Origin: a virus
Taxonomy: Duplodnaviria; Caudoviricetes
DNA length: 51,902 nucleotides
Virus record (IMG/VR): IMGVR_UViG_3300003886_000264
Span: 1 to 51,902 of that record
Strand: one strand, 5' to 3'
Both the position numbers and the translations under genes were made by a program. The notes under the pieces were generated by a model, which had not been told where the DNA came from, did not search any database, and was given only the letters and a program-made list of their open reading frames with translations. Below, one piece after another: positions 1 to 46,845 of this stretch. Positions within the stretch are counted from its first letter, which is position 1. Each line of letters opens with the position of its first letter.

Positions 1-91
1 CTTTCGGATGCCAGAGGACTTCTCCAGACTCCAAAAGATTACCAGGTCTATATGGTCTGCTCGGTTCTTCTGGAGCAACTTTCCCCATTTT
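1..91. repeat. 91-bp terminal direct repeat (copy 1); circular-assembly overlap
   Basis: Bases 1-91 are identical to 51812-51902. The repeat lies inside a continuous ORF, so it is assembler overlap rather than a biological terminal repeat. Confidence 0.95.
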
Positions 92-3000
92 AACTTCAGT
101 CTTAGGGTCATAATACTTTGATAATACTGTTACGGCATTTTCATACTCGTCTTTATTCTTATATAAAGACCTCTCTGCATATTTCCGTAATTCTGGAGGG
201 ATATTCTCTTTTTCTCTTGCTATCCTTTGTTCATTAAACTCCTTACCAGAGTTCATTCCTAACATACCAAGTGTATTAGGGTCGAAAAGAGCTTTCTCAC
301 CTGTTAATATAGCTTTAGTCCCTTGCCATATTCCATTAAGAAACTTCTTCATACCTTGCCCAAACCTGGAAAGCATTTCCTTAGACCACATTCCAAGAGT
401 ATTAAATCCTTTTTGAAAAAGATAAGCACCAGCTTTAGCATAGTTATAAACAAGTACAGGGTCAAGACCTATCGGGTTAATATCACCTTTCTTAGCTATA
501 ATCTCTAATGCCTCTTTAAAGCTCTTTAAATCTACTACCATAGTTGACTTAAAGTTTCCATCCTTATCTACAACCCCTATGTCAGCTATTGTCTTACGCT
601 GTTCAGGAGTTAACTTCATAGATAGATGACTTTTAACTTCAGGTTGAGTTATAATCGTACCATCTTCTAATAAGACAGACTTAGCACCTTTAGCATTTGC
701 AAGTTGTAATTTTTTATGTTTTTCTAAGTCAAGAGCAAAAGCTTTATCATATAGTTCTTTTAACTTACCTTCTTTATTAAAACGTAATTCATTTATTTGG
801 TCTTCAGTTTTACCCTCAGCTTTTAATTGTTCTTCAATAACTTTAACTTCGGTCATAACCTTATCAACTTGTGCTTTAACATCTTCTACTATCTCTGTCC
901 CAACCTTATTCTCTTTTAACTTATCACCAAATTGCTTTATTTTCTTTTCAGCTTCTGCTTTAATCCTTTCAGGTGTAACCTTGCCATCTTTAAAAAGTAA
1001 AGTTATAGTTGATTGCTTTAACTTATCAGTTATTTTACTTGGTACTTCAATATCAAAAGTAACAGCTTGAGGGACTTTACCAGCACCTCTAATAATACCT
1101 TTATAATCTCCTTTAATACCAGACTCTTCAAAAGCTTTCTTTAACTCTTCATCAGACTGTGCATTAGCTTTCTTTAACTTTCTAATTTTACGTCTTCGCT
1201 CATTAGCTTTTTGCGTTTTTGTTTTCTTCTGCTCCCCCTCTATCTTGGTGGTAGCTTCTTTTTTATTCTCAATAGGTTTCTCAGTAAAGCGTCTTTTTAG
1301 TTCTTGTATTATAGCGACAGGACTATCAGCTTCTTTAAGTGCTTCGTTAAGGTCTGGAATGGTCTTAATCTTATCAACCTCTTCTTTAATCTTAGCAGTA
1401 GATTTGACCTGCTCTCTTTCTCTACCATAAGTCTGTCTCTCTGCTTCTGTAAGTCCAGCTCCTTTTGTACTTTCAAGTGGTTTACCTTTGGCATCAACAA
1501 GCCCTTCCACAACAGGTGTTTGTTCCAGTTTACCCAAAGTCGTAGCTCGTTCAAGTCTTGCTTGCTCATCAACGGTAAGACTTTCTTTTTTAACTTTTTT
1601 AGGTTCTTCCCTGTTCTGTATCTCCTTACTTTTAGCATCTTGCTCGATAATCGCTCTCTGCTTTTCATTTTGAATCTCCGTATGCTTTTCAAGCTGAGTA
1701 TCTTTTTCAAGTTGTTGCTTCGCTAAGATTCTATTTACCTCTTCGTTGATAGCCTTGCTTTCATAAATATCAAGAGTTTCCTGAATTCCTTTTTTAATTT
1801 GAGTTTTGTATTGTTCAGGAGTAAATTTATAAGCACCTTCCTCAAAGAATTTCGTAGGATTGTTTATATATTTAAGCATATCATCTTTTATACGAGTACG
1901 AAAGACTTTCTCAGGCAATTCAAAGAAAGCAGCAGTTTCATTTATAAACTTATCTAATTTTATATCTTCAGGTAACTGATTCTTTCTAAGAGCTTTGGTA
2001 AGTTTATCAGCATATATCAAATGTGCAACTACTGAAGCAGACATCTGTTTGTTAAGTTCAAAGGACTCATAAGAGTCTTTTTCTTTAACTTTATCAAATG
2101 GATTCTTAATATCTTTGAACTTTGTTTCATAAACTGCTTTTAAAGTTTTGGTACGACCGGCATCTTCAAAAGACTGTTTAAAGGTTTTCCTAACAAAAGG
2201 AACAACTTCAGAAATAAAAGAATAATCAACAGCATTTGACTTTGAAAGTGTAATTGGCTCTTGCTCTATACGTTCAACCGTTCCCTTAGTAACAAATTTA
2301 TTCTGGTCAATTAAATAAAGATTATTCTTTTCTCTTTCATAATAACGTGGAATCTCAACACCAGTCTCTTTAATACCTTCTTCAAGAGTCCTACCATTCT
2401 TTGCAGCTATTCTAAGTAAATCAAAACTATCTTTTTCTACCATTACATTCTTCTGGTCTTTAAGAACATAACTTTTCCAAGCTCTTGGGTCAGAGAAGTG
2501 CAATGACATAAAGGTTAATGCAGTAGCTAATTTATCCTCTGTAGTTCCATCAGAAGAGAAATACCCTAAACCACCAGAAGTTGCTGTTCCACTTATCATC
2601 TGGACTACCTTAGGATTCCTACGTAAAAAAGTAGTAGCTTCTCTCATAGATAAATTTCTTGATTGTCTTAATAAAGCCGATATACCTGTTCCTGCATACT
2701 CACCTGCAACTCCAAAAACAGAAGCTAAGATTGAGAATTTGCCAAGTTGTTGTATATCACCTAAGAAAGCATCAACCCCTTCTTCAAGTGAATGATTTAT
2801 CATACTTGGGGTTTGTGCTAAAGCTAAGGTCATATTATTTTGTATAAGAGCATTAGCAAATTTACCTGGCAGAGATGAAGCTTTTGTAATCTCAGGAAGC
2901 ATTCTACCTATTACTTCGCTACTAATACCTCCAGCTAACATAAATAATGGAGCATCTATTGCAAAAGTTGCAAAGGTATTAGCAAAGGTATCAAGGAAAC

Positions 3001-3703
3001 CATCAGTCTCGTAGGTTACCTTCTTCTCAAAATACTTATTAAATAAATCAATTTCATCTTTATCTTTTGTTAAGAGTACATCATTATAATATACTCCATC
3101 AGATTTGAATTTAAGATTATCAAAGAGTGTCTGTCCTAATCCATACTTACCAATCCATTTACCTGCAAATGCCGAAGCTCCAAGTCGCCCTAATTGATAA
3201 GTCAAAGAGTTACCAAGAGCATTCTCCCAAAAACCCTTTCCTATACCTTGCTTAAATTCTCCAGTAGCAGGGTCAACAGCATCTCGCATTATCTCAAAGA
3301 TTCTATTCTTCTGAGTTTGTGCAGTATAAATTTTCCCTATTTCATCTGCTGAACTGCCTATCGTAACACCATCAACAGCTTCAATAAGAGATTTGCTAAT
3401 CTCCTTACCGTTCTTGTCTTTCTTAATACGATAATATCTATATTTCCCATCTTCATCAAGTTTTATTTCTTCAACAGTATCTACATCTGCTTCGGGATTA
3501 GGAAGAAAGTTATCAATTATATCACGGTCGCTTTTATACCTGAATACTTGCATAAAATCATTAAAGTTTTTATCAGGTATAAGTCCAGGCACCGTATCAG
3601 GTACACCTATTCCTGGCATAGACAACGCTGTAAATTGTTGTCCTGTTGTGCCTGAAAAGTCAAGTAAGGTCTGTATATCTTTTGCTGAACGTTTACCTCC
3701 CAC
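1..3703 (-). CDS. Giant internal virion/ejection protein, N-terminal part (continues across the join to 48870; about 2,214 aa in total)
   Basis: GTG at 3703 preceded by GGAGGAGG. The segments I translated are open (MGGKRSAKDIQTLLDFSG...KYYDPKTEVKMGKVAPEEP), and the ORF track reports no stop-terminated ORF in this frame. In frame with the 48870..51899 ORF after removing the 91-bp overlap. Third and largest gene of the post-nozzle cluster. Confidence 0.8.
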   Translation of the reverse strand, partial: MGGKRSAKDIQTLLDFSGTTGQQFTALSMPGIGVPDTVPGLIPDKNFNDFMQVFRYKSDRDIIDNFLPNPEADVDTVEEIKLDEDGKYRYYRIKKDKNGKEISKSLIEAVDGVTIGSSADEIGKIYTAQTQKNRIFEIMRDAVDPATGEFKQGIGKGFWENALGNSLTYQLGRLGASAFAGKWIGKYGLGQTLFDNLKFKSDGVYYNDVLLTKDKDEIDLFNKYFEKKVTYETDGFLDTFANTFATFAIDAPLFMLAGGISSEVIGRMLPEITKASSLPGKFANALIQNNMTLALAQTPSMINHSLEEGVDAFLGDIQQLGKFSILASVFGVAGEYAGTGISALLRQSRNLSMREATTFLRRNPKVVQMISGTATSGGLGYFSSDGTTEDKLATALTFMSLHFSDPRAWKSYVLKDQKNVMVEKDSFDLLRIAAKNGRTLEEGIKETGVEIPRYYEREKNNLYLIDQNKFVTKGTVERIEQEPITLSKSNAVDYSFISEVVPFVRKTFKQSFEDAGRTKTLKAVYETKFKDIKNPFDKVKEKDSYESFELNKQMSASVVAHLIYADKLTKALRKNQLPEDIKLDKFINETAAFFELPEKVFRTRIKDDMLKYINNPTKFFEEGAYKFTPEQYKTQIKKGIQETLDIYESKAINEEVNRILAKQQLEKDTQLEKHTEIQNEKQRAIIEQDAKSKEIQNREEPKKVKKESLTVDEQARLERATTLGKLEQTPVVEGLVDAKGKPLESTKGAGLTEAERQTYGREREQVKSTAKIKEEVDKIKTIPDLNEALKEADSPVAIIQELKRRFTEKPIENKKEATTKIEGEQKKTKTQKANERRRKIRKLKKANAQSDEELKKAFEESGIKGDYKGIIRGAGKVPQAVTFDIEVPSKITDKLKQSTITLLFKDGKVTPERIKAEAEKKIKQFGDKLKENKVGTEIVEDVKAQVDKVMTEVKVIEEQLKAEGKTEDQINELRFNKEGKLKELYDKAFALDLEKHKKLQLANAKGAKSVLLEDGTIITQPEVKSHLSMKLTPEQRKTIADIGVVDKDGNFKSTMVVDLKSFKEALEIIAKKGDINPIGLDPVLVYNYAKAGAYLFQKGFNTLGMWSKEMLSRFGQGMKKFLNGIWQGTKAILTGEKALFDPNTLGMLGMNSGKEFNEQRIAREKENIPPELRKYAERSLYKNKDEYENAVTVLSKYYDPKTEVKMGKVAPEEPSRPYRPGNLLESGEVLWHPK

Positions 3704-5129
3704 CAGTACCTCCTCCAACATTACCTAAGTTACCCAAACGACCTGAGAAAACACTATTATCTCTCCCACTAAGTCTATCTTCTTCAGCTTGTTTCTTTAA
3801 AAATAGGTCTCTGGCTTCTGCCACACGACTTTCATAATCTACATAAGTTTCAGGGTCGCCAGGGTCATAGTATCCTCCACCACCATTAGGGAAGAGAGAA
3901 GCATCTACTGGAACAATAATCTTAGTTGGGTCTAAGAAAGAACCATCTATAAGAGGATAAGAACGAGGATTATCAAGTGTTCCTTTCCTAAAGAATGGAC
4001 TTACTGGAGTGTATTCTCCATATTGTGAAGTAAGCAAATTACCTAAATCTTTATAGTTCTTATTATAGTATTGGTCTGAAGTCTTATCATACATAACATC
4101 ATAAACTTCCTTCGCTAAATCTTCACCTGTCTCCATTGCCTTAATTACTTGAAGACTTGAACCAAATTCATTTATTTCTTTTTGACGCTTCTTTACATCA
4201 TTAGCGAATAAAGCAAGAGCAGTTCTTTTATATTCATCTCTTACCCATTGAAAATCTTCAGTTTCATTTGGAAATCGTAATAAATCCATCCTTTTAGTTG
4301 CCTCAACAAGTTCATTATATTTCCTTTTAGTAAAAGTAATATTCTCCATAAGGGTTGTGCCCATATTACCAGTTTTACTAAACTGACTTCTCCAATTTAA
4401 TGTATTCTTTCTTATAAGTGCATCTACACCTGCCCACGCTTTAGCAAACTCAGGGTCACTTCCATATTGCAAGAACATATTATTTCTAAAGTTCTCTAAA
4501 TTAAATCCTTTTTTACCACTTGCTTGATTAAAGATAAGATTTAGTTTAGAGAATTCATCACCACTGATTATCTTAGCCATAAGTGAAGTAACTTTTCTAT
4601 CCTCTTTAAGGTCATCAAGCTTTATGTTATCTAACAGTAAATCTGTTTTTATAGACTCTACTTGAAACATAGATTGCTTAAATGCTTGTGTCTCAAAAGG
4701 TAACTTACGTTGTCTCTCTAAGTTTGAAATTTTTTGCTTCTGTTGACCAGAGAGTACATCTACTAATCTACCTGCATCTTCTCCTCCGACCATACCAAGA
4801 TTCTGTATCGTACCACCATAAAGTTTATTTAATTCTTCTTGTCTCCGCAAGACGTTAACACTAAAAGATGCAAAAGTACTTAACTGTTTTTCAAGGTCAA
4901 CTTGATTTTCCTTAACAGTAGGGTCTTCATTTATTGCACTTAATTGTTCTTCAGTTGATAATGGTTCCTGCTCAAGTTCTTGCAGTCTTGCATTAAAGTC
5001 AGTTATGACATTACGAGTACCCTTCGTTTGAGCTTCTAATAACTTTGCTTGTCCCTTAATAACTTCACCACTCATTAAGTTAGAAGTCTGTAACTTTGCT
5101 AAAGCTGTTGTAAAATCTATTTTAGCCAT
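3693..5129 (-). CDS. Putative internal virion/ejection protein (coiled-coil rich)
   Basis: Likely start MAKIDF at 5129 (GGAGG upstream, 1 nt after the previous stop). Lies between the small and giant ejection-type genes. Confidence 0.6.
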   Translation of the reverse strand: MAKIDFTTALAKLQTSNLMSGEVIKGQAKLLEAQTKGTRNVITDFNARLQELEQEPLSTEEQLSAINEDPTVKENQVDLEKQLSTFASFSVNVLRRQEELNKLYGGTIQNLGMVGGEDAGRLVDVLSGQQKQKISNLERQRKLPFETQAFKQSMFQVESIKTDLLLDNIKLDDLKEDRKVTSLMAKIISGDEFSKLNLIFNQASGKKGFNLENFRNNMFLQYGSDPEFAKAWAGVDALIRKNTLNWRSQFSKTGNMGTTLMENITFTKRKYNELVEATKRMDLLRFPNETEDFQWVRDEYKRTALALFANDVKKRQKEINEFGSSLQVIKAMETGEDLAKEVYDVMYDKTSDQYYNKNYKDLGNLLTSQYGEYTPVSPFFRKGTLDNPRSYPLIDGSFLDPTKIIVPVDASLFPNGGGGYYDPGDPETYVDYESRVAEARDLFLKKQAEEDRLSGRDNSVFSGRLGNLGNVGGGTGGR

Positions 5130-14428: not shown

Positions 14429-15820
14429 TTAGTTATTAGGTTTTGCAGCACCAACTACTCTAAAGTTAGTATCAAGTAACCTTCTAACCATACCCCAAGC
14501 ACCATATAACTCTCTCCATTTGCCTTTGAAACCTTCATTCGATTTGTAAGATTTCGCATCATCTGGCTGGTCATTGAAAGGTACTTTGTGAGCTATTTGC
14601 CAGTTACCAAACCTATTCTTCTGATTATAATTATATTCAGATAAGTTTAATGCCAGCACTTCATTCTGCATACCAAGTTCATTAAGAATAGGAGCAGTAA
14701 CGTGATGAACAACCATATCTCTTCCAACAGACTCTAAAGTCATAATCTTCATTCTGTAATTGACAGAAAGTTGAGCGTTGGTATAGTATGTTGACTTATT
14801 CTCATAAGCATTAGCTAATTGTTCAGAGAAATGTGTTCCCGAGAACCACCACATCTCTTTAACACCGGAGATGTCAGCTTGGCGTCTGACTAAGTTATTA
14901 ATCCTTTGTACTGTAGGTACTTTGCCAGCCAAGTCCTGGTAATGGTCTGTGTCAGGATAAATAGTTTCAAGTACACCCCCTGTCTCGTATTCCAAATCAC
15001 CTGAGACTTTTTTCTTAGATTTTCTTGCTGTGAGAATTGCTCTCTCCATTGCCTTCATTAGAAAGGTCTCGGCAAGCTGGTAAGAAATATTAAGATACTC
15101 AGTACCTTTCGCAAGATAAGTCTCAATACCCCCACCCTGAACCATGTGCTCGCCTAATCCATAAGACATTCTGGTAATCTGGATATAGTTCTCAAGAAAA
15201 TCAGAATTCTTATTTATAGGTGGCTTTGGAAAATCATTTGCTCTTGCAACAAGATTACTCACAGTAAGAGTCATTGCAGTTGTAATAGCAGGAGCAGTAT
15301 TAGCATAAGTGTCAGCAGGATGTGCCCTTCTAACAGTTATAATTCTAAAACCAGTACCGCCACTATCTTCATTACCAATTGTGATTACTCTAACCTCTTC
15401 CGGAAGAACAATCCCATTCGCAATATTCATAGCAGTTGCCATATCATTACTTGCATTTGATACAGTAAATTTGCACCAGATACCATCTACGTGCAAACGT
15501 GTAGAAGTATTAAGTAAAGTGCCAACATCATTAGTTACTTTAAACTTAGTATTCGTTGCGTCAGTTGAATTCGATGCTTCAGAAAGCACAAATTGATAAT
15601 CAAGTTCATCAAATTCTGGATAACGAAACTCCCAATCAGTAATATCAGATGCAGGGACAGAACCAAACTTCTCGGATATGACCTTTAACAACGTAATCGT
15701 GTTAATCTGTCTTAGTGCCCAAAAACGGAAGAATTCCTTGTTCTGTGCATATATACGCAGTCTATCTTGGACATTAGAAAGGTCATATAAACCTTTTATA
15801 GTTTGACCATCAGCGTTCAT
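14429..15820 (-). CDS. Major capsid protein (HK97 fold, SU10/DUF5309-like, with E-loop insertion)
   Basis: Follows portal and scaffold. Motifs ENYIQITR, MERAIL and ETGGVL match the N..QI / ERA.L / TGG pattern of this capsid family; 463 aa. Confidence 0.85.
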   Translation of the reverse strand: MNADGQTIKGLYDLSNVQDRLRIYAQNKEFFRFWALRQINTITLLKVISEKFGSVPASDITDWEFRYPEFDELDYQFVLSEASNSTDATNTKFKVTNDVGTLLNTSTRLHVDGIWCKFTVSNASNDMATAMNIANGIVLPEEVRVITIGNEDSGGTGFRIITVRRAHPADTYANTAPAITTAMTLTVSNLVARANDFPKPPINKNSDFLENYIQITRMSYGLGEHMVQGGGIETYLAKGTEYLNISYQLAETFLMKAMERAILTARKSKKKVSGDLEYETGGVLETIYPDTDHYQDLAGKVPTVQRINNLVRRQADISGVKEMWWFSGTHFSEQLANAYENKSTYYTNAQLSVNYRMKIMTLESVGRDMVVHHVTAPILNELGMQNEVLALNLSEYNYNQKNRFGNWQIAHKVPFNDQPDDAKSYKSNEGFKGKWRELYGAWGMVRRLLDTNFRVVGAAKPNN

Positions 15821-19430: not shown

Positions 19431-21203
19431 TTATGGTAAGACTGCATAAGCTTCAATATCTTTGTTTTTATCAATTTCTTCAAGAATTAAAGAGACTTTT
19501 TTCTTATTAGGACGAATATCTCCATATATATCAAGACCTATCTTGTCAGGACATTTCCCTAATATTTCTGCATTATGTAAAGCGTCTAATATATCAAGTG
19601 TACTATCAGGGAAAGTCTCTATCTGTTCCCTTACCTTTTTAATATACTTCATAGTACGTAGGAGTTCATAACGAGCAGCACTAAACCAATTAAGTAGTCC
19701 AACCTGTAACTTATACTCCTTATCATCTGTTGGGTGGTAAGGTAACATCCTAATCTTAACTCGTAATTTCGTAAGTAAATCCTTGATGTCATTATACCAA
19801 GCAAGTTGTTGCCCTGCATTCTCAATCACCACACCATCTGCATGATATTTAAGTATATGCCGAACTGCTTCCTCTACACCACCCTTCCGTCTCACTAATT
19901 GCAAGTCGTCAGCACTAATTGCCAATTTTGTACTTGCCTTTATCCGCAACTCCTCATCTTCATCATAATATCTATCCCTAATATCGAACTTCGCTAATGA
20001 GCAATCTATTACTCTACGCTGTCCATCACAACAAAAAGCTGTTGTAGTAATACAACCATCCGAAGACTTGCGTTTACTCGAGATAGCAGGGTCTAAACTG
20101 ACTATAATCATTGCATTATACTGCTGCTCAATTATATCTTCATTCTCATCTAATGTCTTTTTAATTATCCAGCTTATTCCATTCCTATGCTTATAAGCTC
20201 CATCAAACTCAACAATACGGAAATCTTTATCAGAAATAAGTTTATTATAGTACTCCATCATAAACCTTCGCAAACCACCAAGTTTAGGATGTCCTTCAAA
20301 CCATTTCTTAAGTTTCCCTACATATTCAATATCAAACCTTTTAGCCCAATCAGCAGTCTCTATTCCAGTAATAGGGTCAATCTTAGTAATCTGATAAAAC
20401 TGTTTCTTCCATCCTGTATTCTTTTCAGACAAGAGATGTTTTATTAGGCAGTTAGCGTGGACGTAGTTCCCTATATAGATAGTCATACCTTCTTTATCTA
20501 ATCCAGAGAACTGTTCTCCAAGTATCTCATCAGCATTATACTGACGCATAGTGGCAGTCTTTGTATTCTCTTTATTCTCAACATCATCATCAATATCTAA
20601 CTTAGGACGTCTATCCTTAATGTTAGCACCCCTTGTCGGTTGATTTAGCCCTACAGATTGGAAGATATAGCCATTTTTAAGAATCATAAACTTAGTAGTG
20701 TTCTTAAGCTTTTCATCTCTGACTTCTTTTATGGTTGGTTCAAGTCTGCCAAATAACTTGAGTACGTTAGGATTGATAAACTCAGCAGTTACATTAAGGA
20801 GTTTTTTCTCAGCATCTGGAGAATTCTTGGCTCTAAGTCGAATATAATCAATCTCAGGTAATAATTCGTCTTGATAGTATACTCCATATTGTCCTATTAA
20901 AAGGAAATAAAGTGGAAGGATTTTCCCAAACCAAGTAGACTTTGAACCCTCACGATAAGTACAGATAACGTGGCATCTGTCAACTTTAGTATCTCCCTTT
21001 TTATATTTTAATACTTCGTGGAGTGCTGGTCTAACCCAATTAGCTGTACCGAATTCACGCTTAAGGGCATTTGGGAAGAGTTCAAAGCCAAATCGTACAA
21101 TACCTAAGTCAGATGGTGAAGTATTAGATTGCCATCTTGGTAAGTATTTATACAGAAGTTTATTCTTAGGGTATTTCCTAAGCGGTTTGAGTTCATAAGT
21201 CAT
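19431..21203 (-). CDS. terL: Terminase large subunit
   Basis: Walker A-like TYREGSKST, RGANIKDRRPKLDIDDDVE (Walker B), RRFMMEYYN, RNase H-like SLDPAIS, VVIE and DILDAL. Confidence 0.92.
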   Translation of the reverse strand: MTYELKPLRKYPKNKLLYKYLPRWQSNTSPSDLGIVRFGFELFPNALKREFGTANWVRPALHEVLKYKKGDTKVDRCHVICTYREGSKSTWFGKILPLYFLLIGQYGVYYQDELLPEIDYIRLRAKNSPDAEKKLLNVTAEFINPNVLKLFGRLEPTIKEVRDEKLKNTTKFMILKNGYIFQSVGLNQPTRGANIKDRRPKLDIDDDVENKENTKTATMRQYNADEILGEQFSGLDKEGMTIYIGNYVHANCLIKHLLSEKNTGWKKQFYQITKIDPITGIETADWAKRFDIEYVGKLKKWFEGHPKLGGLRRFMMEYYNKLISDKDFRIVEFDGAYKHRNGISWIIKKTLDENEDIIEQQYNAMIIVSLDPAISSKRKSSDGCITTTAFCCDGQRRVIDCSLAKFDIRDRYYDEDEELRIKASTKLAISADDLQLVRRKGGVEEAVRHILKYHADGVVIENAGQQLAWYNDIKDLLTKLRVKIRMLPYHPTDDKEYKLQVGLLNWFSAARYELLRTMKYIKKVREQIETFPDSTLDILDALHNAEILGKCPDKIGLDIYGDIRPNKKKVSLILEEIDKNKDIEAYAVLP

Positions 21204-22395
21204 CTATTGCAGAAAGTTTAGACATCCCATCAAAATCAACAGCATCAACATCTTCTCGCAATACATCAAGTTGTCTTACTTTTTCTTTCTTCTCTTCTTT
21301 TGATAAATCATAAGGTGGCTTAAGAATAGTAAATTCATTAGTCTCTACTACCTTTTCTGGAGGCGCAGGAACATCATCAAGAAGTTCTATATCAATACTA
21401 TCTTCAGTTTCCTCTTTCTTGATAGCGAATCCTTTCTTATCGTTTTTCTCTATAAGCTTAGGACTTTTAGCCCCATCTATAAGTTTACTCTCTCCAACTG
21501 ATACAGTCTCATCTGATTCTCTAATATTAAGTATAGCATCATATACTTTAAGAGAATCATCAGTAGTCCCATCCGTAAGAGATTTGTCAAAGATAAGTTT
21601 TGCCATTTCTACCATCTCTTTGTCAGGTATCTCTGTCTTAAATGCTTTTTGTAAATCACCCATTAGATATGCAAGCTCCTTTCTAAATAGCTCTCTAAAT
21701 CTTTTTGTTTGTACTATCTTCTCTCTATCATCTTTTCGTATAGTCAGACCATAAATTTTCTTGACGGCATCGTCCAACTTGAGATAGGTGTCTGAGAGAG
21801 GATTAAATAATAAGTGGAAAAGGCGAACATCACGGACAGTTGCTCTTTTCCTTTCCAGTAACGCTTTAAGTCGTTCGTCATAAGTGCTTCTTTCTCTAAC
21901 GCCTTCAACAACACTTGAGGGGTTTTTGAATTGGTCTTTAACAGCTGCTGTAAGGTTCCAGCGAGATATGGAAAGCATTTCAATTCCGTTAGAGAAAAAA
22001 CAAAGATAGTGATTTCTTGCGGAGAGGATAAGGTGGAGCTGGATAAAGCAGTTGTCTGTTGGAATTGCTCTTCCTTCTTCGTCAAGCTCCCAATGGATAA
22101 TCCCTTTTTCAACTCCTGCTGAAGCCAGACTTTTAGGGACAAACTTTTCTCCTGTAGCCACGAAGACATTGACATCACTAACTTGGCAAAATTTATTCCT
22201 GCCCTGCAAGCCATACTTCTTAGTAAACCCAAGAAAGTCTTCAACCCCTCTGATAATATGGAATGTTGTAAGTTCATTCTTAGTTATATGCTCCTTTAAC
22301 TCTTTTTTTGAATGGAAGATATACATTGGCTGTGATACATTCAAGTATTTAGGGCTAACTCCTCCATCTTTTTTTCTTAAATCTACTTTTCTCAT
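21193..22395 (-). CDS. Putative terminase small subunit-like / DNA-packaging protein
   Basis: Overlaps the TerL start; helical core with acidic tail. Assignment is positional. Confidence 0.4.
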   Translation of the reverse strand: MRKVDLRKKDGGVSPKYLNVSQPMYIFHSKKELKEHITKNELTTFHIIRGVEDFLGFTKKYGLQGRNKFCQVSDVNVFVATGEKFVPKSLASAGVEKGIIHWELDEEGRAIPTDNCFIQLHLILSARNHYLCFFSNGIEMLSISRWNLTAAVKDQFKNPSSVVEGVRERSTYDERLKALLERKRATVRDVRLFHLLFNPLSDTYLKLDDAVKKIYGLTIRKDDREKIVQTKRFRELFRKELAYLMGDLQKAFKTEIPDKEMVEMAKLIFDKSLTDGTTDDSLKVYDAILNIRESDETVSVGESKLIDGAKSPKLIEKNDKKGFAIKKEETEDSIDIELLDDVPAPPEKVVETNEFTILKPPYDLSKEEKKEKVRQLDVLREDVDAVDFDGMSKLSAIDDL

Positions 22396-22919: not shown

Positions 22920-22982
22920 TATTTTTCTTCTCCTTTATATATTAAGTGATGGTTTATTAAACTTGGCATATTCGTTTATTCG

Positions 22983-23090
22983 TAGCTACTGAGGAGTCGA
23001 GCCACTGCAGTTAGCTGTTTCTCCCTTCGCCCAAAATCTACGTGCTTGAAGGACACTCGAGTCTCTCCGACAAGACAGGCAGATTTCCTT
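22983..23090 (-). ncRNA. Candidate structured RNA (GC-rich intergenic element)
   Basis: Locally GC-rich. An AAATCTGC/GTAGATTT stem encloses two hairpins, followed by an AGCTA-CTG/CAGTAGCT stem containing a T-loop-like GGCTCGACTCC. Confidence 0.3.
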
Positions 23091-23100
23091 GCAAATATAT

Positions 23101-23385
23101 TCAAGATAACTCACCATCACTATCTTTAGTATTATTTATTGCTCTTTTTAAAGCATCATCTATTAGTGCTCTATTTATTCGCTGTATAGAGGCACTCAAT
23201 TCATTCATAAGCAATATCTCTACATTAGGAGAAAGATTAAAGATTTCTACACTAAAGCCAATTTCTAATCTTTCTGTAAACTTAGGTTTTTCTGTCATAA
23301 CCACAGTCTCTTCTCCTTTTTCAGTAGGTTCTCCTACTTCATCTATGATTTCTCCAACACTTACATCTATCCATACTGCGTGCAT
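23101..23385 (-). CDS. Small protein resembling a capsid E-loop/spine-helix fragment
   Basis: GGAGG RBS. Sequence FSVEIFNLSPNVEILLMNELSASIQRINRALI resembles the HK97-fold spine-helix region. Confidence 0.55.
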   Translation of the reverse strand: MHAVWIDVSVGEIIDEVGEPTEKGEETVVMTEKPKFTERLEIGFSVEIFNLSPNVEILLMNELSASIQRINRALIDDALKRAINNTKDSDGELS

Positions 23386-23621
23386 TTAACCTCCTGAAAT
23401 TCAGGGTATCTAAATTTCCAATCTTCAACTATCCCCTTATTCCCTTTTGATAACATTTCTAAAAGAGGCATTTTTGCATACTCCCTAAGTCTATCTTGAA
23501 TAAGTACAGAGTCATATAAACCAGTCGGCTCAGACAAAGGTGTTCTGAACCAACTGACTGGTTTAACGGACAAGGCAGCGATAGCGAGTCCCAAACTCCT
23601 TAAAAACGTTCTTCTATGCAA
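23367..23621 (-). CDS. Tat-signal protein carrying a copy of the major capsid N-terminus
   Basis: Probable TTG start at 23621 (or GTG 23624) overlapping the upstream stop: MHRRTFLRSLGLAIAALSVKP. Then GLYDSVLIQDRLREYAK and EDWKFRYPEF, matching capsid GLYDLSNVQDRLRIYAQ and TDWEFRYPEF. Confidence 0.8.
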   Translation of the reverse strand: MHRRTFLRSLGLAIAALSVKPVSWFRTPLSEPTGLYDSVLIQDRLREYAKMPLLEMLSKGNKGIVEDWKFRYPEFQEVKCTQYG

Positions 23622-24036
23622 CACTTCCCTCAATCCTACCTGTAAAAGCTCCTTCTTCTTCAACAGGGACAACTATAAATGGTCTTAAAGAACCAATTAT
23701 CCCTTTAAAAAGATGGTCTTTAGCTTGCTGCTGAGAAGATAATTCATTAAAAGGAAGCAAACAAGGATGAGTTTTCAATTCTGCATCTTTCGTATGTCCC
23801 CAGACCCATCCAGTTCTGATTTTATCTCTCGTCCAGTTATCATGAGCAGCAGACTCACTCGCATCAGGATTACTCAGATGAAATTTAACTCCATCAACAG
23901 CACTAACTTTCTGCCATACTGGAGCATTTTCCCAACTATCCTGTGAATGGTCTTTATCCAGCGCACAGAAAACCTTATTCGCTTCGTGACATATTTGTGC
24001 CACATCTACTACTGATAAAAAAGTCCCTTCTTTCAT
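23614..24036 (-). CDS. RyR (ryanodine receptor repeat) domain phage protein
   Basis: AQICHEAN..WENAPVWQ..HDNWTRDKIRTGWVWG..KDAELKTHPCLLPFNEL..QQAKD is the characteristic RyR-domain signature. Confidence 0.88.
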   Translation of the reverse strand: MKEGTFLSVVDVAQICHEANKVFCALDKDHSQDSWENAPVWQKVSAVDGVKFHLSNPDASESAAHDNWTRDKIRTGWVWGHTKDAELKTHPCLLPFNELSSQQQAKDHLFKGIIGSLRPFIVVPVEEEGAFTGRIEGSVA

Positions 24037-24073
24037 AGCGTCTCCTTTTCATAAAGTTAAAAAATATTTGACC

Positions 24074-24102
24074 AATATAAAGAATTATAAACATTTTGTC
24101 AA
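24074..24102 (-). promoter_or_regulatory. sigma70-type promoter driving the leftward (packaging/structural) arm
   Basis: AAGGAC-TTGACA-N17-TATATT on the minus strand, upstream of the RyR gene. Confidence 0.75.
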
Positions 24103-36995: not shown

Positions 36996-38630
36996 ATGGT
37001 TGATTTTAGAAAAGCATTAGCCCAAAAGGGAGTATCGCAAGAGTCATCTGATGAGACACTCCCCATACCCTTAAAGTCATCTAAAGTAATAGCAGAAGCT
37101 ACCTCTACTTTAAATGGAGACCAACTTAAAGCTTTTGATAAAATTATGGAGACCTTGCAAGACCCTGAAAAAGAATATTTTTCTTTAGAAGGATATGCTG
37201 GTACAGGGAAAACCTACCTTGTAGGTAAGATAGTTCAGTGTATTGATGGAGCAGTAGCTTTAAGTGCTCCTACCAACAAGGCAGTTAAGGTGCTATATGA
37301 TAATAAACTAATTCTTACAGAGGTACCAGAAGAATCTGAAATACCTAAGAAAGATAGACCTAATGGGAATGTTGCTTATGCTACGATACATAAGTTATTA
37401 GCATTAAGAGTTCAGTGGACAAGACCTTTCAAAGGTTCTGGTAAAGAACCAGAGCAGATTCTTGTCAGGAATTACAGGAGTAAACCAACTGTTAATGAAT
37501 ATTTGCTTTTAGTAATAGATGAAGCTTCGATGTTAGATGATGCTTTATTCAAAATGATTAGTACTGAGAAAAACAAGGAATTAAAAGTGCTTTTTATGGG
37601 AGACCCTGCACAAATACCTCCTATAAATAGGGAAGATTCTATTCCGCTGATTGCAGAAGAAAGAAAAAAGTGGGCTATGGAGCACGCAATATTAGAAAAG
37701 ATTATGAGACAAAAGAGTGACAATAAAATCTTAGAGGTAGCATATCAGATTAGAAATGGTCGCTTTAATAGTAGAGACCCTTTATTATCACGTATAAGCA
37801 ATAAGGATGTCTCTTTCTATACTTCAATGAAATTAGAAGATAAGCAAGTCTTTATAAAGATTATGATTTCTTATTTTCTTAGTGAGAAGTTTAATACAGA
37901 CCCTAACTATTGCAAAGTAATAGCTTGGACTAATAAGATGGTTAATACTTGTAATGAGATAATAAGGCACTCTATTTATAAAAGCTCTCCTAAGCTTAGC
38001 AAAATAATGCTTGGAGAGAAACTAATAGCAGATAAACCTATCTTTAATGAAGACCACGAGATTATTTTTAATACAAGTGATGAGTTTACCGTAGAGCAAT
38101 TTGAAGTAAAAAATCAGACTTATTATTTACCTGAGAAAGGTAATGAATTACTTGAACAGATAGAAATGGATATGAAAGGAACAGAAATTTCAGGAGCAAC
38201 AAAAACAGGATTTAACTTCAAGTATTACCAGTGTGATGTTAGGTACAGAACAAATGAGAACCCAGAGGGATGGTTAGCTATGATAGAAGTGTTGCACGAA
38301 GACTCAGAAAAAGCTTTTTGGTTTATGATGAAGAAATTAAAAGCAAGAAAAAATTGGGAGGAATATACAAAAAATATTGAAAGGTTCGCAAATGTTAAGT
38401 ATAATTATGCTATTACTTGCCATAAAGCTCAAGGCAGTACTTATAGTACTGTATTCCTAATGGAGGACGATATAGACCTTAATCACAGAACAATTGAACG
38501 TAACAGAATTAAGTATACAGCTTGTACACGACCTAAAAAAGAACTGTATATTCTTTCAAAATACAATCCAAGTAAGGAACAACAAAATGGATATATTGAA
38601 AAGGCACAGAGCTCTCTTAGACATAGTTGA
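36996..38630 (+). CDS. Dda/RecD-like SF1B helicase
   Basis: GYAGTGKT, SAPTNKA, TIHKLL, IDEASM, GDPAQIPP, IMRQ, YAITCHKAQGSTY, YTACTR. Confidence 0.93.
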   Translation: MVDFRKALAQKGVSQESSDETLPIPLKSSKVIAEATSTLNGDQLKAFDKIMETLQDPEKEYFSLEGYAGTGKTYLVGKIVQCIDGAVALSAPTNKAVKVLYDNKLILTEVPEESEIPKKDRPNGNVAYATIHKLLALRVQWTRPFKGSGKEPEQILVRNYRSKPTVNEYLLLVIDEASMLDDALFKMISTEKNKELKVLFMGDPAQIPPINREDSIPLIAEERKKWAMEHAILEKIMRQKSDNKILEVAYQIRNGRFNSRDPLLSRISNKDVSFYTSMKLEDKQVFIKIMISYFLSEKFNTDPNYCKVIAWTNKMVNTCNEIIRHSIYKSSPKLSKIMLGEKLIADKPIFNEDHEIIFNTSDEFTVEQFEVKNQTYYLPEKGNELLEQIEMDMKGTEISGATKTGFNFKYYQCDVRYRTNENPEGWLAMIEVLHEDSEKAFWFMMKKLKARKNWEEYTKNIERFANVKYNYAITCHKAQGSTYSTVFLMEDDIDLNHRTIERNRIKYTACTRPKKELYILSKYNPSKEQQNGYIEKAQSSLRHS

Positions 38631-38934: not shown

Positions 38935-39215
38935 CCTTAACAGTAGGAGATAAAGTTAAGGTTAATATAGTAGAGATACCTGAAGAGCATAGGCAATGTG
39001 AAGTAGGGGAGATTACAAAAATGTATATGAAGTTTAGAGCCACTCCAGAACTTAGGGATATAAGTATTACTGTTATGTTCGATGAGAACTATGTAAGAAA
39101 GCAATTCCGGTATGGTGGCGGCTTTTCGTCTTTAAGTTTTAATAGCAAAGATATAAATAATCCAGACGTTAAATATCCAGTATATATTGAGAGAATAAAT
39201 GATAGAAAGAAATAA
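38904..39215 (+). CDS. Small SH3/KOW-like protein
   Basis: LTVGDKVKV...VGEIT...ITVMFD; alternative start at 38931. Confidence 0.55.
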   Translation: MGRKESKAQMTLTVGDKVKVNIVEIPEEHRQCEVGEITKMYMKFRATPELRDISITVMFDENYVRKQFRYGGGFSSLSFNSKDINNPDVKYPVYIERINDRKK

Positions 39216-40362
39216 GTTATATAATAGCGATTGTTTTCTTATAATGGAAGACTTTCCTAACACATCTGTTAATATTTATTATACTGATACGCCCTATAAC
39301 TTAGGGTCGGAGTATATTATAGACAGTCAGGGTCATTATGTCTTTACTAAAGCATCTGACTTTATGAATAGTTGGGAAGCAATGGATGGTCGCTGGTGGA
39401 ATAAATACTTTAATGAAATATATAGAACTCTTAAGTATGGTGGTTACTTTATTACTCATAATATCGACAGACAAAGCGATATGTGGAGTTATTATGCAAG
39501 ACGTAATGGTCTTGTTCCTACACAAAAGTTATATTGGCTATTCGTTGACCATTTTCCGAAAGGCGTTGATGTTACTAAGCAATTAGACAGACTTCAAGGA
39601 CAAGAAAGGATTGTAGTTGGTAAACAGAAAGGAGCGCAAAAGAAAAGTACTGGAAAGTATGGCGATTGGGGACAGAACGCTAATGCAGACGGAACTTTTA
39701 ATCTTACCATACCTACATCAAAGATAGCACGAAAGTATGAAGGTTATATTTACGGACTTGCCTCACTTAAACAAATGGTAGAGGAAATACTTGTCTTTTA
39801 TAAACCACCAAAGGATACTGTTCCCAAAGACATTCTTGCAATGGAGGAGATAAGAAAATTTACTAACGAAGAGCTTATGTTAGCACATCCTTCAGTATTA
39901 AATTTGAAGAAAACTTCAATCCCCTCTTCTGACGGACTAAGGTGGACTCCACAGTTACTCGTGGCTGAGGAGATAATGCCTCGCCTTTTAGAGAACCCAT
40001 ATATCAATCACCCAGAAGCTGCTAAATTGAAGTCATCAGTTAAAGTAATAGAAGATAGCACTCCTAAAAACGATACTGGTAATATTTCACCTTATTATTT
40101 AGAGCCAAAGGTACAGGGAAACAAAAAGCATGTATCACCAAAGCCACTACCCTTAGTTCGTTGGATTATTGATTTGTTTAAGCCCCCCGAGCAAATCTTG
40201 ATAGTTGATACATTTATGGGGACTGGAGCCATACCTTATGTTTGTAAAGAGCAGGGTATAGATTATGTTGGAATAGAACTTGATAAAGATACCTTCGATG
40301 ATGCAAAAGAGTATATTGAAGGATTAGACAGCAACTTAACACTATTTGGAAGGAATACTTAA
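39199..40362 (+). CDS. DNA amino-methyltransferase (N4/N6, beta class)
   Basis: LYNSDC, motif IV variant TDTPY, HVSPKP..LVRWI, motif I DTFMGTG, GIELD. Confidence 0.92.
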   Translation: MIERNKLYNSDCFLIMEDFPNTSVNIYYTDTPYNLGSEYIIDSQGHYVFTKASDFMNSWEAMDGRWWNKYFNEIYRTLKYGGYFITHNIDRQSDMWSYYARRNGLVPTQKLYWLFVDHFPKGVDVTKQLDRLQGQERIVVGKQKGAQKKSTGKYGDWGQNANADGTFNLTIPTSKIARKYEGYIYGLASLKQMVEEILVFYKPPKDTVPKDILAMEEIRKFTNEELMLAHPSVLNLKKTSIPSSDGLRWTPQLLVAEEIMPRLLENPYINHPEAAKLKSSVKVIEDSTPKNDTGNISPYYLEPKVQGNKKHVSPKPLPLVRWIIDLFKPPEQILIVDTFMGTGAIPYVCKEQGIDYVGIELDKDTFDDAKEYIEGLDSNLTLFGRNT

Positions 40363-46620: not shown

Positions 46621-46845
46621 TTACTTTTTCTTTAAATTAAATAATTTCTTGTATTCTTTACCATTATCTTTAGCATCAAGCGAGCCAAATAATATGGTAA
46701 GTACAGTACCTGCAATTGTTAAGGGGACAAGCCCTGTCATTGCACCAATTGAGGTAAGTCCTCCCCCAATAACAGCTATCCTCCGCCTGTTACCTTTTAC
46801 AAGGTTATTAGCAGAGGATAGTGCTTGTTTAATTATTTTCCACAT
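46621..46845 (-). CDS. Small membrane protein (holin/antiholin-like)
   Basis: Basic N-terminus, long hydrophobic hairpin, basic tail; lysis context. Confidence 0.55.
   Translation of the reverse strand: MWKIIKQALSSANNLVKGNRRRIAVIGGGLTSIGAMTGLVPLTIAGTVLTILFGSLDAKDNGKEYKKLFNLKKK

What the first reader, a model, noticed from the sequence alone, without database searches (positions are those of the whole stretch)
23367..23621. Tat signal fused to a selected copy of the phage's own capsid N-terminus: candidate exportable capsid decoy
Seen: an 84-aa ORF starts with a textbook twin-arginine signal (MHRRTFLRSLGLAIAALSVKP). It then reproduces three blocks of this genome's capsid N-terminus in order: GLYDSVLIQDRLREYAK vs GLYDLSNVQDRLRIYAQ, LLEMLS vs LLKVIS, and EDWKFRYPEFQE vs TDWEFRYPEFDE. 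Conserved residues use different codons (Arg AGA vs CGT, Tyr TAC vs TAT, Pro CCT vs CCA, Leu-Arg CTT AGG vs CTG CGT), so the peptide rather than the DNA is being conserved. Established: Tat exports folded proteins and can carry bound partners, and several defences sense capsid proteins (CapRel, Lit/Gol). Inference: a capsid-epitope bait, transcribed upstream of the capsid operon, that binds the host capsid sensor and tethers it to the membrane or exports it through Tat. Alternatives are a membrane anchor for procapsid assembly or a superinfection-exclusion factor. I know of no description of this architecture.
Basis: partly seen in the sequence, partly recalled or inferred. Interest (0 to 1): 0.93.

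Follow-up and report, generated by a model that had tools for sequence, protein, structure and literature searches.

The report
Signal-tagged capsid N-arm mimic gene
A phage carries a tiny, very rare gene that joins an export-type signal to a diverged version of the first stretch of its shell protein, next to a likely immune-evasion gene; its job is unknown, and a decoy role is the leading guess.

Summary
On the minus strand, 23367-23621 is an open 84-codon frame. Residues 34-78 match the N-terminal arm of this phage's 463-aa HK97-fold major capsid protein (BLASTP E 7e-10, 36% identity, two in-frame gaps). Residues 1-24 carry RRTFLR plus a short hydrophobic stretch.

- The start codon is TTG (GTG one codon upstream), not ATG.
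- 15 of 23 shared residues use the same codon.
- The Pfam TAT_signal match is 14.5 bits, below the 22.7 cut-off.
- It is not a copy of this genome's own capsid. It is one of three members of an older paralog family. The other two (98 and 114 aa, from short metagenome contigs) keep RRxF[LF], G11 L12 A15 V19 P21 W24 and about 60% identity to capsid N-arms.

The gene is accessory. No other related locus or record examined has it. One metagenome contig appears to join straight across it and its upstream neighbour.

That neighbour is a RyR-domain protein. It keeps the H/W/H/D spacing reported for RyDEP anti-Thoeris proteins.

The function is not shown. My best guess is a membrane- or Tat-routed capsid-arm mimic used in phage-host or phage-phage conflict. 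The decoy reading is circumstantial.

The parts
23367..23621 (-). P0001, the 84-aa small ORF (TTG start at 23621-23619; GTG alternative at 23624-23622; stop at 23367-23369).
   Evidence: The ORF stays open in only 39 of 20000 shuffles.
23550..23621 (-). N-terminal module, residues 1-24: RRTFLR, an 11-residue uncharged stretch, then V-K-P-x-x-W. This is a Tat-like or export-type signal.
   Evidence: Pfam PF10518 scores 14.5 bits, below the 22.7 cut-off. Nine residues are invariant in 3 of 3 family members. The Kyte-Doolittle 19-residue maximum is 1.20. The invariant-residue DNA pattern hits 23550-23615.
23388..23522 (-). Capsid N-arm-like body, residues 34-78. It keeps the counterparts of capsid helices 14-26 and 44-52 and strand 64-68. 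It lacks the block that forms capsid helix 30-37.
23627..23631 (-). GAGGG Shine-Dalgarno-like site, 5 nt before the TTG. It lies inside the 3' end of P0003.
   Evidence: Sequence printed. The P0003 stop (23614-23616) overlaps the P0001 start.
23614..24036 (-). P0003, a 140-aa RyR-domain protein and upstream partner in the cassette. It is a likely RyDEP-type anti-Thoeris protein.
   Evidence: PF02026 E 5e-11, 43.1 bits against a 27.4 cut-off. PDB ryanodine-receptor repeats hit at E 1e-18. H65, W68, H90 and D107 have the same spacing as RyDEP H75, W78, H100 and D117.
23387..24071 (.). A 685-bp stretch (P0003 plus P0001) skipped by one contig of metagenome run X2, which has 27 unrelated letters in its place. 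This is the candidate accessory cassette.
   Evidence: tables 2, 5 and 5c. The shorter side of the joint is only 28 letters, so this is weak evidence.
24074..24102 (-). Promoter-like site TTGACA-17-TATATT (11 of 12 positions), 38 nt upstream of the P0003 start.
   Evidence: The number of promoter-like sites in the region is not above shuffles (14 against a mean of 13.6).
23101..23385 (-). P0004, a 94-aa downstream gene. Its AGGAGG (23390-23395) and ATG lie inside the 3' end of P0001, with a 19-nt overlap.
   Evidence: No family hit.
14429..15820 (-). P0002, the HK97-fold major capsid protein. It is the parent family of the mimic.
15602..15793 (-). Capsid N-arm, residues 10-73, the region that the small ORF resembles.
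   Evidence: Mean majority-residue frequency is 0.754 here against 0.68 for residues 74-463.

Best explanation
P0001 is a real, selected accessory gene. It belongs to a very rare family with three known members. The family joins an export-type, twin-arginine-like N-terminal signal to a paralog of the conserved N-arm of this phage group's HK97-fold major capsid protein.

It is translated by coupling behind a RyDEP-like RyR-domain gene. The pair form a 0.69-kb cassette directly behind a near-consensus sigma-70-type promoter, at the head of the packaging/head operon.

The mechanism I commit to is inferred, not shown. The body works by mimicry: it presents the capsid N-arm surface without the rest of the capsid protein, so it competes for whatever recognises that arm. 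The N-terminal signal takes the mimic, and possibly what it holds, to the inner membrane or Tat translocon and away from the cytoplasmic pool.

In this reading the cassette is a two-gene counter-defence unit. P0003 removes or soaks up cADPR-type immune signals. P0001 blunts a host factor that senses newly made capsid protein.

My confidence differs by step. That the gene and the two-module family are real: about 0.8. That it serves a conflict role rather than a core assembly role: about 0.6. The decoy-plus-membrane-routing mechanism: 0.3.
For: **Real gene under selection.**
- The open frame is unlikely by chance (39 of 20000 shuffles).
- Two homologues exist, found by an exhaustive HMMER scan of 1.84 billion representatives and a word-indexed profile search. 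Twenty-seven columns are invariant across the three, nine of them in the N-terminal 24 residues.
- Identities to capsids are enriched at capsid-conserved columns.
- The three share YAK where 32 of 35 capsids have YAQ. They form a clade with support 0.81.

**Export-type N-terminus.**
- RRxF[LF] is present in 3 of 3 members.
- The hydrophobic stretch is too short and too weak for a membrane helix. It has 11, 11 and 16 uncharged residues, and the Kyte-Doolittle 19-residue maximum is 1.17-1.39.
- It is the best RR-plus-hydrophobic match of 4 loose matches in all six frames of the window.
- TAT_signal is the only Pfam family listed for P0001 and for P0069 at E up to 10.

**Candidate host lineage has Tat.**
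- Capsid relatives lie in an Ignavibacteriales MAG and a Melioribacter MAG.
- The Ignavibacteriales contig is 150 kb and also carries bacterial genes.
- Both MAGs encode TatC above the Pfam cut-off.

**Accessory status.**
- Of 18 related sources, only the window has a separate small match. The other 17 match only at their capsid N-terminus.
- 4 of 4 whole related records have a single match, again the capsid N-terminus.
- There were 0 matches in IMG/VR to the invariant-residue pattern.
- One X2 contig joins 23386 to 24072.

**Conflict context.**
- P0003 is a PF02026 protein that keeps the reported ligand and catalytic residues by spacing.
- Phage RyR-domain proteins degrade or sequester Thoeris signals (PMC13232231: abstract and sections 4-5 read).
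- Thoeris cyclases are triggered by major capsid proteins (PMC12578639: abstract and passages read).

**Needs a partner to fold.** The AlphaFold model of P0001 alone has pLDDT 59 and three helices but no compact fold. That is expected of an N-arm, which folds on a partner.
Against: - No export, binding or phenotype has been shown.
- The Tat call is below threshold (14.5 bits for P0001, 12.7 for P0069, none listed for P0070, against a 22.7 cut-off). NCBIfam gave no Tat hit.
- In two candidate host MAGs, matches of 13-17 bits occur several times per genome. That score alone is therefore weak.
- There is no canonical A-x-A cleavage site; the conserved site is (A/V)-x-(S/T) followed by V-x-P (read).
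- To my knowledge, known counter-defence proteins act in the cytoplasm, so an export signal fits a decoy poorly.
- In the one Thoeris system studied, recognition needs the capsid E-loop and P-loop, not the N-arm.
- Genomic context is known for only one of the three members. The RyR link may be a coincidence of a variable slot.
- P0001 is the most diverged member. It sits on a long branch and has lost the helix-2 block, so it may be decaying.
- The X2 joint rests on 28 letters on its shorter side.
- The host assignment rests on MAG binning.
Confidence: 0.3

Rival explanations
1. Superinfection exclusion or inter-phage competition in the envelope. The signal exports the N-arm mimic to the periplasm or the outer face of the inner membrane. 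There it binds proteins of an incoming related virion that normally contact the inner capsid surface, such as ejection or cargo proteins. This blocks genome delivery by competitors.
For: - The signal-peptide-like N-terminus, rather than a membrane helix, fits an exported protein.
- Small envelope-targeted accessory proteins are the usual form of exclusion factors (recalled: T4 Imm and Sp, P22 SieA, T5 Llp).
- The gene is sporadic and sits in a variable slot behind a host-type promoter.
- A relative of the phage lies inside a 150-kb bacterial contig, so the group may be temperate.
- The capsid N-arm is conserved across the whole group. A mimic would therefore act on many relatives.
Against: - No evidence exists that ejected proteins bind the N-arm.
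- The mimic would also meet the phage's own proteins.
- No integrase or repressor was found in the 10 plus-strand proteins scanned, so temperate growth of this phage is not shown.
- The anti-defence neighbour suggests a cytoplasmic counter-defence theme.
Confidence: 0.2
2. Assembly helper or regulator. The mimic binds the phage's own capsid or scaffolding protein. It either tethers early procapsid assembly to the membrane through the uncleaved signal or delays capsid polymerisation.
For: - The natural partners of an N-arm are neighbouring capsid subunits and the scaffold (general knowledge of HK97-fold capsids, recalled).
- The gene is in the same operon as TerL, portal, the 424-aa gene and the capsid gene.
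- The residues kept are those conserved in capsids.
Against: - The gene is absent from all related genomes examined, including whole records that have the same head genes.
- No relative of it was listed in the 90%-cluster collection that also holds the capsids closest to P0002 (88-89% identity), so those phages' called proteins seem to lack it. It therefore cannot be a needed assembly factor.
- An export signal would take it away from cytoplasmic assembly.
Confidence: 0.12
3. Decaying remnant. P0001 is the shortened, fast-evolving leftover of a once-functional family member, or of an old capsid-gene fragment. It was carried in with the RyR gene and no longer does anything.
For: - It is on the longest branch of the tree.
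- It has lost a block of about 15-17 residues that the other two members and all capsids keep.
- It has a non-ATG start.
- It is a singleton at the 90% cluster level, seen on 2 contigs.
- Its own model has low confidence.
Against: - The frame is intact despite saturating divergence (39 of 20000 shuffles stay open).
- Both deletions are in frame.
- All nine N-terminal invariant residues, the YAK motif and DWKFRYPEF are kept.
- It matches the capsid consensus at 19 of 31 capsid-conserved columns but only 5 of 26 variable columns.
- It has a Shine-Dalgarno site at good spacing, and both gene junctions overlap in the manner of coupled translation.
Confidence: 0.13

Closest known systems
Twin-arginine (Tat) signal peptides, including 'hitchhiker' export, where a signal-bearing subunit carries a bound partner that has no signal
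   Same: - The RRxF[LF] motif sits at residues 3-7, followed by a short, moderately hydrophobic stretch rich in G, A, S and T, and then a polar or charged residue.
- The small signal-bearing protein has a body that is a binding surface.
- Candidate host lineages encode TatC.
- Hitchhiker export is documented, for example for E. coli PaoABC (PMC4273604; only the abstract in a search listing was seen).
   Different: - It scores below the Pfam TAT_signal cut-off.
- Two of three members have only 11 uncharged residues.
- There is no A-x-A site.
- The body is not a cofactor protein and is not predicted to fold alone.
- No Tat-signal protein derived from a phage capsid turned up in the two Tat-term paper searches.
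N-arm of HK97-fold major capsid proteins (the PF17236 group; solved relatives are VP1, phicrAss001 and SU10)
   Same: - It is homologous to residues 10-73 of P0002 (E 7e-10).
- P0069 and P0070 are about 60% identical to capsid N-arms over 54-58 residues.
- The same conserved residues are kept.
   Different: - It has no E-loop, P-domain or A-domain, so it cannot form a shell.
- It has an N-terminal signal-like module that no capsid in the alignment has.
- It forms a separate clade.
RyDEP, the phage RyR-domain anti-Thoeris proteins (this applies to the neighbour P0003, not to P0001)
   Same: - P0003 has a PF02026 domain above the cut-off.
- Its H, W, H and D residues have the same spacing as the reported ligand and catalytic residues.
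- The domain is widespread in phages: 267 records match P0003.
   Different: - P0003's activity has not been tested.
- The sections of the RyDEP preprint that I read (4 and 5) describe no small partner gene.
- In the one other RyR context I opened, the overlapping 62-aa downstream gene has no RR or hydrophobic start and no capsid likeness.
Structural-protein mimics made by mobile elements (SaPI CpmB as a scaffold mimic, P4 Sid). These are recalled, not checked here.
   Same: A small protein reuses a piece or surface of a head-assembly protein to act on capsid proteins.
   Different: - Those proteins are cytoplasmic.
- They are encoded by satellites, not by the phage itself.
- They redirect capsid size.
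- None carries an export signal.
Capsid-sensing defences and their triggers: Thoeris ThsB with the capsid protein (PMC12578639), and, recalled only, CapRel, Lit with the Gol peptide, and F-plasmid PifA with T7 gp10
   Same: These show that newly made capsid protein is a common alarm signal. A capsid fragment could therefore act as a competitor. PifA is membrane-associated, as I recall.
   Different: - No phage-encoded capsid-fragment decoy turned up in my decoy search.
- The staphylococcal Thoeris needs the E-loop and P-loop, not the N-arm.

Membership tests
Tat (twin-arginine) signal peptide | Consensus motif (S/T)-R-R-x-F-L-K near the N-terminus (consensus recalled) | tested here: met
   The motifs are H-R-R-T-F-L-R in P0001, N-R-R-K-F-F-K in P0069 and N-R-R-K-F-L-T in P0070. 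RR and F6 are invariant.
Tat (twin-arginine) signal peptide | Score at or above the curated cut-off of the Pfam TAT_signal model (PF10518, 22.7 bits), or a match to the NCBIfam Tat model | tested here: not met
   P0001 scores 14.5 bits, P0069 scores 12.7 bits and P0070 is not listed. NCBIfam gave no hit. In two candidate host MAGs only 1 of 7 and 1 of 5 listed matches pass the cut-off, so the model is strict.
Tat (twin-arginine) signal peptide | A moderately hydrophobic h-region of about 12 or more uncharged residues, then an A-x-A cleavage site (criteria recalled) | tested here: inconclusive
   The uncharged runs are 11, 11 and 16 residues. The Kyte-Doolittle 11-residue maximum is 1.74-2.14. 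There is no A-x-A; the conserved site is (A/V)-x-(S/T) before V-x-P.
Tat (twin-arginine) signal peptide | The host has a Tat translocase | tested here: inconclusive
   TatC is above the cut-off in 2 of 2 MAGs that hold capsid relatives. The host of this phage is only inferred from those MAGs.
Tat (twin-arginine) signal peptide | Tat-dependent, RR-dependent export | not testable with these tools
   This needs a reporter fusion in wild-type and tat-mutant cells. SignalP, TatP and TATFIND were not available.
HK97-fold major capsid protein (PF17236 group) | Significant sequence homology to the family | tested here: met
   E 7e-10 to P0002. P0001 matched 61 of 62 capsid N-termini at E up to 10. The family profile A3 hits the capsid N-terminus in 18 of 18 sources.
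HK97-fold major capsid protein (PF17236 group) | The complete HK97 fold (E-loop, P-domain, A-domain) | tested here: not met
   The homology ends at residue 78 of 84. The model has three helices only. P0001 is a paralog of the N-arm, not a capsid protein.
RyDEP / RyR-domain anti-Thoeris proteins (neighbour P0003) | A PF02026 domain with the His, Trp, His and Asp ligand and catalytic residues | tested here: met
   PF02026 scores 43.1 bits against a 27.4 cut-off. H65, W68, H90 and D107 match the +3, +25 and +42 spacing of H75, W78, H100 and D117. This is a match of spacing only, not an alignment to RyDEP itself.
RyDEP / RyR-domain anti-Thoeris proteins (neighbour P0003) | Binding or cleavage of 2'cADPR or 3'cADPR, and rescue from Thoeris | not testable with these tools
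   This needs biochemistry and phage challenge assays.
Phage counter-defence decoy | Binds a host immune sensor and prevents its activation | not testable with these tools
   No sensor is known for this host. The only support is context: the gene is adjacent to P0003 and sits in an accessory slot.
Superinfection-exclusion proteins | A small envelope-located protein that blocks entry of related phages | not tested
   Only the export-like N-terminus and the accessory status fit.

The most novel reading that the evidence does not exclude
The cassette is a two-layer anti-Thoeris (or more general anti-capsid-sensing) unit. The RyR-domain protein destroys or soaks up the cADPR alarm signal. The small protein is a capsid N-arm decoy that captures the capsid sensor. 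Through its twin-arginine signal it drags the sensor to the Tat translocon, tethering it at the membrane or exporting it as a hitchhiker. This would be a way of disarming immunity by physically removing the sensor from the cytoplasm.
Probability: 0.12. Interest if true: 0.9.

Novelty: categorically new. Interest (0 to 1): 0.62.

Why it matters
If the protein is made and routed as its sequence suggests, it would be the first case I know of where a tailed phage keeps a free, signal-tagged copy of a piece of its own shell protein. That would open two testable ideas.

First, phages may answer capsid-sensing immunity with capsid-fragment decoys. Capsid-sensing immunity is now known for Thoeris; for CapRel, Lit and PifA I am relying on recall.

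Second, a phage may use the host Tat pathway to move or remove proteins.

There is also a practical point. The pairing with a RyDEP-like gene suggests where to look for new counter-defence genes: the first slot behind the late-operon promoter in this uncultured phage group.

If the protein turns out to be inert, the case still documents how capsid-gene fragments can persist as separate small genes.

Tried and rejected
**Searches that found no relatives**
- tblastn of P0002 and P0001 against 50,697 phage records found no match. The group has no relative among those records.
- The search for related loci with P0002 alone in IMG/VR found none. With the small-family alignment A3 it found none in IMG/VR. 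In JGI metagenome contigs it found only L021, which is a capsid N-terminus.
- The whole record behind L021 could not be searched because it is not held.
- The invariant-residue DNA pattern had 0 matches in IMG/VR.
- The ESM Atlas gave no usable hit.
- P0068 (806 aa) is a low-complexity repeat protein. I discarded it as a spurious match.

**Tests of neighbouring genes**
- P0003, P0004 and the 175-aa protein had no match in five related IMG/VR records.
- I tested whether RyR genes generally carry a small Tat-like gene downstream. In the one context opened (Vibrio phage record), the overlapping 62-aa gene has no such features. I opened one of 267 records only, so this settles little.

**Jobs that gave no answer**
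- Complex prediction of the capsid protein (alignment A1) with P0001 residues 25-84 (alignment A4) gave the verdict 'no answer'. The scores were 0.00 and 0.00, and the controls were not run. This is not evidence either way.
- The look-up of sequencing runs listed no RNA holder. The stretch 23446-23913 had no or almost no cover in runs X1 and X2 (table 2). By itself that is no evidence of absence.

**Analyses I gave up**
- dN/dS between P0001 and the capsid gene was not attempted. At 36% protein identity and 58.5% nucleotide identity, silent sites are saturated. No DNA is held for P0069 or P0070.
- I considered a frameshift fusion of P0003 and P0001. I rejected it because the homologues start with M-N-R-R.
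- I considered a recent duplication of this genome's own capsid 5' end. I rejected it.

**Tools and material that were closed**
The contigs holding P0069 (1772 bp), P0070 (622 bp) and the closest capsid relatives (P0006, P0007) could therefore not be read.
- Paper supplements were not consulted. The RyDEP preprint's homologue lists may bear on P0003.
Full report
**What the window is.** The window is a complete virus record of 51,902 bp. It has a 91-bp terminal direct repeat and about 35% G+C. The minus strand from about 24,036 downwards carries an operon:
- a 140-aa gene (P0003, 23614-24036);
- the small ORF (P0001, 23367-23621);
- a 94-aa gene (P0004, 23101-23385);
- genes of 175 and 400 aa;
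- a large terminase (phrog_38, E 1e-23);
- a P22-type portal (PF16510, E 6e-24);
- a 424-aa gene;
- a 463-aa gene (P0002, 14429-15820).

P0002 is the major capsid protein. Its AlphaFold model (pLDDT 81.6) matches solved phage capsids. Vibrio phage VP1 is best at E 1e-17, followed by phicrAss001 and SU10. 24 of its 63 listed relatives carry a precomputed PF17236 hit. The name 'SU10 major capsid protein' for that family is my recollection. P0002 itself gave no Pfam or PHROG hit.

**Checking the observation.** The frame is open for 84 codons, but its first codon is TTG, with a GTG one codon upstream. The stored gene call is the 85-aa GTG form.

I favour the TTG for two reasons. GAGGG lies 5 nt before it (sequence). 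The homologues also begin M-N-R-R, which puts the arginine pair at positions 3-4 in all three proteins. The stop codon of P0003 overlaps this start. The AGGAGG and ATG of P0004 lie inside the 3' end of P0001. This is the usual layout of translationally coupled phage genes.

BLASTP of P0001 against P0002 gives E 7e-10, with 23 identities in 64 columns and two in-frame gaps of 15 and 4 residues.

In the capsid model the matched region holds helices 14-26, 30-37 and 44-52 and strand 64-68. P0001 keeps the first and third helices and the strand, and lacks the second helix.

The codon argument is only partly right. 15 of the 23 shared residues use the same codon, and nucleotide identity is 58.5%.

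An open frame of this length arises in 39 of 20,000 shuffles.

**It is a small family, not a private copy.**
- A word-indexed search of 5.8 billion clusters found only P0001 itself.
- An exhaustive HMMER scan of 1.84 billion representatives found P0069 (98 aa, E 8.7e-4). It also found a low-complexity false hit, P0068.
- A profile of P0001 plus P0069 then found P0070 (114 aa, E 1.5e-20).

Both new proteins start M-N-R-R-K-F-(F/L). They continue with a G/A/S/T-rich hydrophobic stretch. They then run through a capsid N-arm that includes the helix-2 block P0001 has lost.

Invariant in all three are R3, R4, F6, G11, L12, A15, V19, P21, W24, the motif YAK and DWKFRYPEF. P0069 and P0070 are about 60% identical to capsid N-arms over 54-58 residues. 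P0001 is 28-39% identical and about equally far from all of them, its own capsid included.

On a tree of the N-arm columns the three small proteins form one clade (support 0.81). P0001 sits on the longest branch.

For each of the three, identity to the capsid consensus is concentrated in the columns that are conserved among capsids. The counts are 19 of 31 conserved columns against 5 of 26 variable ones for P0001, 24 of 34 against 10 of 32 for P0069, and 25 of 39 against 8 of 35 for P0070. The Fisher p values are 0.0014, 0.0014 and 0.0004. Neutral decay would not produce that pattern. I conclude that the peptide is under selection for an N-arm-like role, and that the family arose once from a capsid N-arm of this group.

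**The N-terminal module.**
- The RRxF[LF] motif fits the Tat consensus as I recall it.
- The following uncharged runs are 11, 11 and 16 residues. The best 19-residue Kyte-Doolittle mean is 1.17-1.39. That looks like a signal-peptide core rather than a membrane-spanning helix.
- Pfam TAT_signal is the only family listed at E up to 10 for P0001 (14.5 bits) and P0069 (12.7 bits). Both are under the 22.7-bit cut-off, and P0070 is not listed. NCBIfam listed nothing.
- The model is strict. In two candidate host genomes only 1 of 7 and 1 of 5 listed matches pass the cut-off, and scores of 13-17 bits occur a few times per 4 Mb.
- In the six frames of the window, a loose RR-plus-hydrophobic rule matches 4 times. 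P0001 is the only RRxFL case.

My reading is that this is an export-type, Tat-like signal. It is conserved but not proven, and it has no canonical A-x-A site. SignalP and TatP were not available.

**Distribution.** A profile of the three proteins was run against all stop-to-stop frames of the window and 17 related loci. It hit a separate small frame only in the window. In all 18 sources it hit the capsid N-terminus.

Many of those loci are short. The informative ones are four whole related records, each with one match, the capsid. Four further loci have 8.7-10 kb upstream of the capsid gene (L026-L029).

The two capsids closest to P0002 (88-89% identity) lie on contigs of 51.7 and 53.2 kb. No P0001 relative was listed in that collection.

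In metagenome run X2, contigs about 85-90% identical cover both flanks. One contig joins 23386 to 24072 with 27 unrelated letters between. That removes exactly P0003 plus P0001. It leaves the promoter-like site TTGACA-17-TATATT (24102-24074, 11 of 12 positions) next to the ATG of P0004. The joint has only 28 letters on its shorter side, so I treat it as suggestive.

Together these results mark P0003-P0001 as a sporadic accessory cassette in a variable slot.

**The neighbour.** P0003 has a RyR domain (PF02026, 43.1 bits against a 27.4 cut-off). It also matches PDB ryanodine-receptor repeats at E 1e-18. The domain is widespread in phages: 267 records match P0003.

[quoted passage not shown] It names H75, W78, H100 and D117 as the ligand and catalytic residues. 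P0003 has H65, W68, H90 and D107, the same +3, +25 and +42 spacing. This is a spacing match, not an alignment to RyDEP.

Separately, Thoeris cyclases are activated by phage major capsid proteins (PMC12578639; abstract and passages read). In that system recognition needs the E-loop and P-loop rather than the N-arm.

**Host.** Capsid relatives lie in MAGs whose record titles name an Ignavibacteriales bacterium and Melioribacter roseus. The first sits on a 150-kb contig that also carries ordinary bacterial genes. Both MAGs encode TatC. The strong Shine-Dalgarno sites in the operon show only that the host uses them. The host assignment is an inference from binning.

**What it most likely does.** P0001 alone is not predicted to fold: pLDDT is 59, with three helices and no compact core. 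That is what one expects of an N-arm, which takes shape on a partner. So the body is best seen as a binding surface copied from the capsid.

Three features point to a role in conflict rather than assembly: the gene is dispensable in relatives, it sits in an accessory slot, and it is coupled to a probable immune-evasion gene.

I commit, at 0.3, to a decoy that competes for a host factor recognising the capsid N-arm and that is taken to the membrane or Tat site by its signal. The main tension is that an export signal suits envelope functions better than cytoplasmic counter-defence. Exclusion of related phages in the periplasm is therefore a serious rival (0.2). An assembly tether (0.12) and a decaying remnant (0.13) are less likely, for the reasons given under each rival. 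The remaining probability is for functions I have not thought of.

**Comparison with what is known, and novelty.** I ran four paper searches:
- Tat plus phage capsid;
- capsid mimic, decoy or anti-defence;
- Tat plus superinfection exclusion;
- RyR domain plus phage.

None turned up a description of a signal-tagged capsid-fragment gene. The library lacks most subscription journals, so this is not proof of absence.

The parts are familiar: a Tat-like signal, an HK97 N-arm, and a RyDEP-like neighbour. I could not find the combination described. Its function is unproven, and the family has only three known members, with context known for one.

Noticed in passing
window 23614-24036 (-): P0003 is a RyR-domain protein (PF02026). 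Its H65, W68, H90 and D107 have the same spacing as the residues reported for the anti-Thoeris enzyme RyDEP. It is a candidate immune-signal glycosidase or sponge in an uncultured phage.
   Followed up: partly
window 2-3721 and 48870-51902 (-), across the record ends: The record ends in a 91-bp direct repeat. With one copy removed, a single 2,221-codon open frame spans the junction. This is a giant protein of unknown kind that was not scanned against families.
   Followed up: partly
L026 (contig C14 of genome G006), with L035 and L036 from the same contig: A relative of this phage (capsid 66% identical, TerL 50%) lies at the end of a 150-kb contig of an Ignavibacteriales MAG. The contig also carries ordinary bacterial genes. 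This suggests an integrated prophage and gives a host hint. The junction was not mapped.
   Followed up: partly
window 22923-23122: In run X2 another contig skips 200 bases between the 175-aa gene and P0004, with 17 other letters in their place. The stretch upstream of the terminase block seems to be an indel hot spot.
   Followed up: no
window around 46788 (-), inside the 46845-47288 / 45999-46610 region: A frame holds G-N-R-R-R followed by a 23-residue uncharged hydrophobic run. It is a probable small membrane protein, a holin-like candidate, with no Tat-type motif.
   Followed up: no
window 21193-22395 (-): Frames of similar size lie directly upstream of the terminase-sized gene in three relatives: 390 aa in L002, 416 aa in L021 and 373 aa in L010. 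The 400-aa protein has no family hit. It is possibly the small terminase or another packaging factor. I did not test the homology.
   Followed up: no
window 36996-38630 (+) and 39199-40362 (+): A superfamily-1 helicase (AAA_30, PIF1 and UvrD_C domains) and an N6/N4 DNA methylase. Eight other large plus-strand proteins had no Pfam hit at E 0.001.
   Followed up: no
L010 9602-9970 (+): The relative G003 has an extra 122-aa gene between the scaffold-sized gene and the capsid gene. The window has no counterpart at that position. It may be a decoration protein or another head accessory.
   Followed up: no
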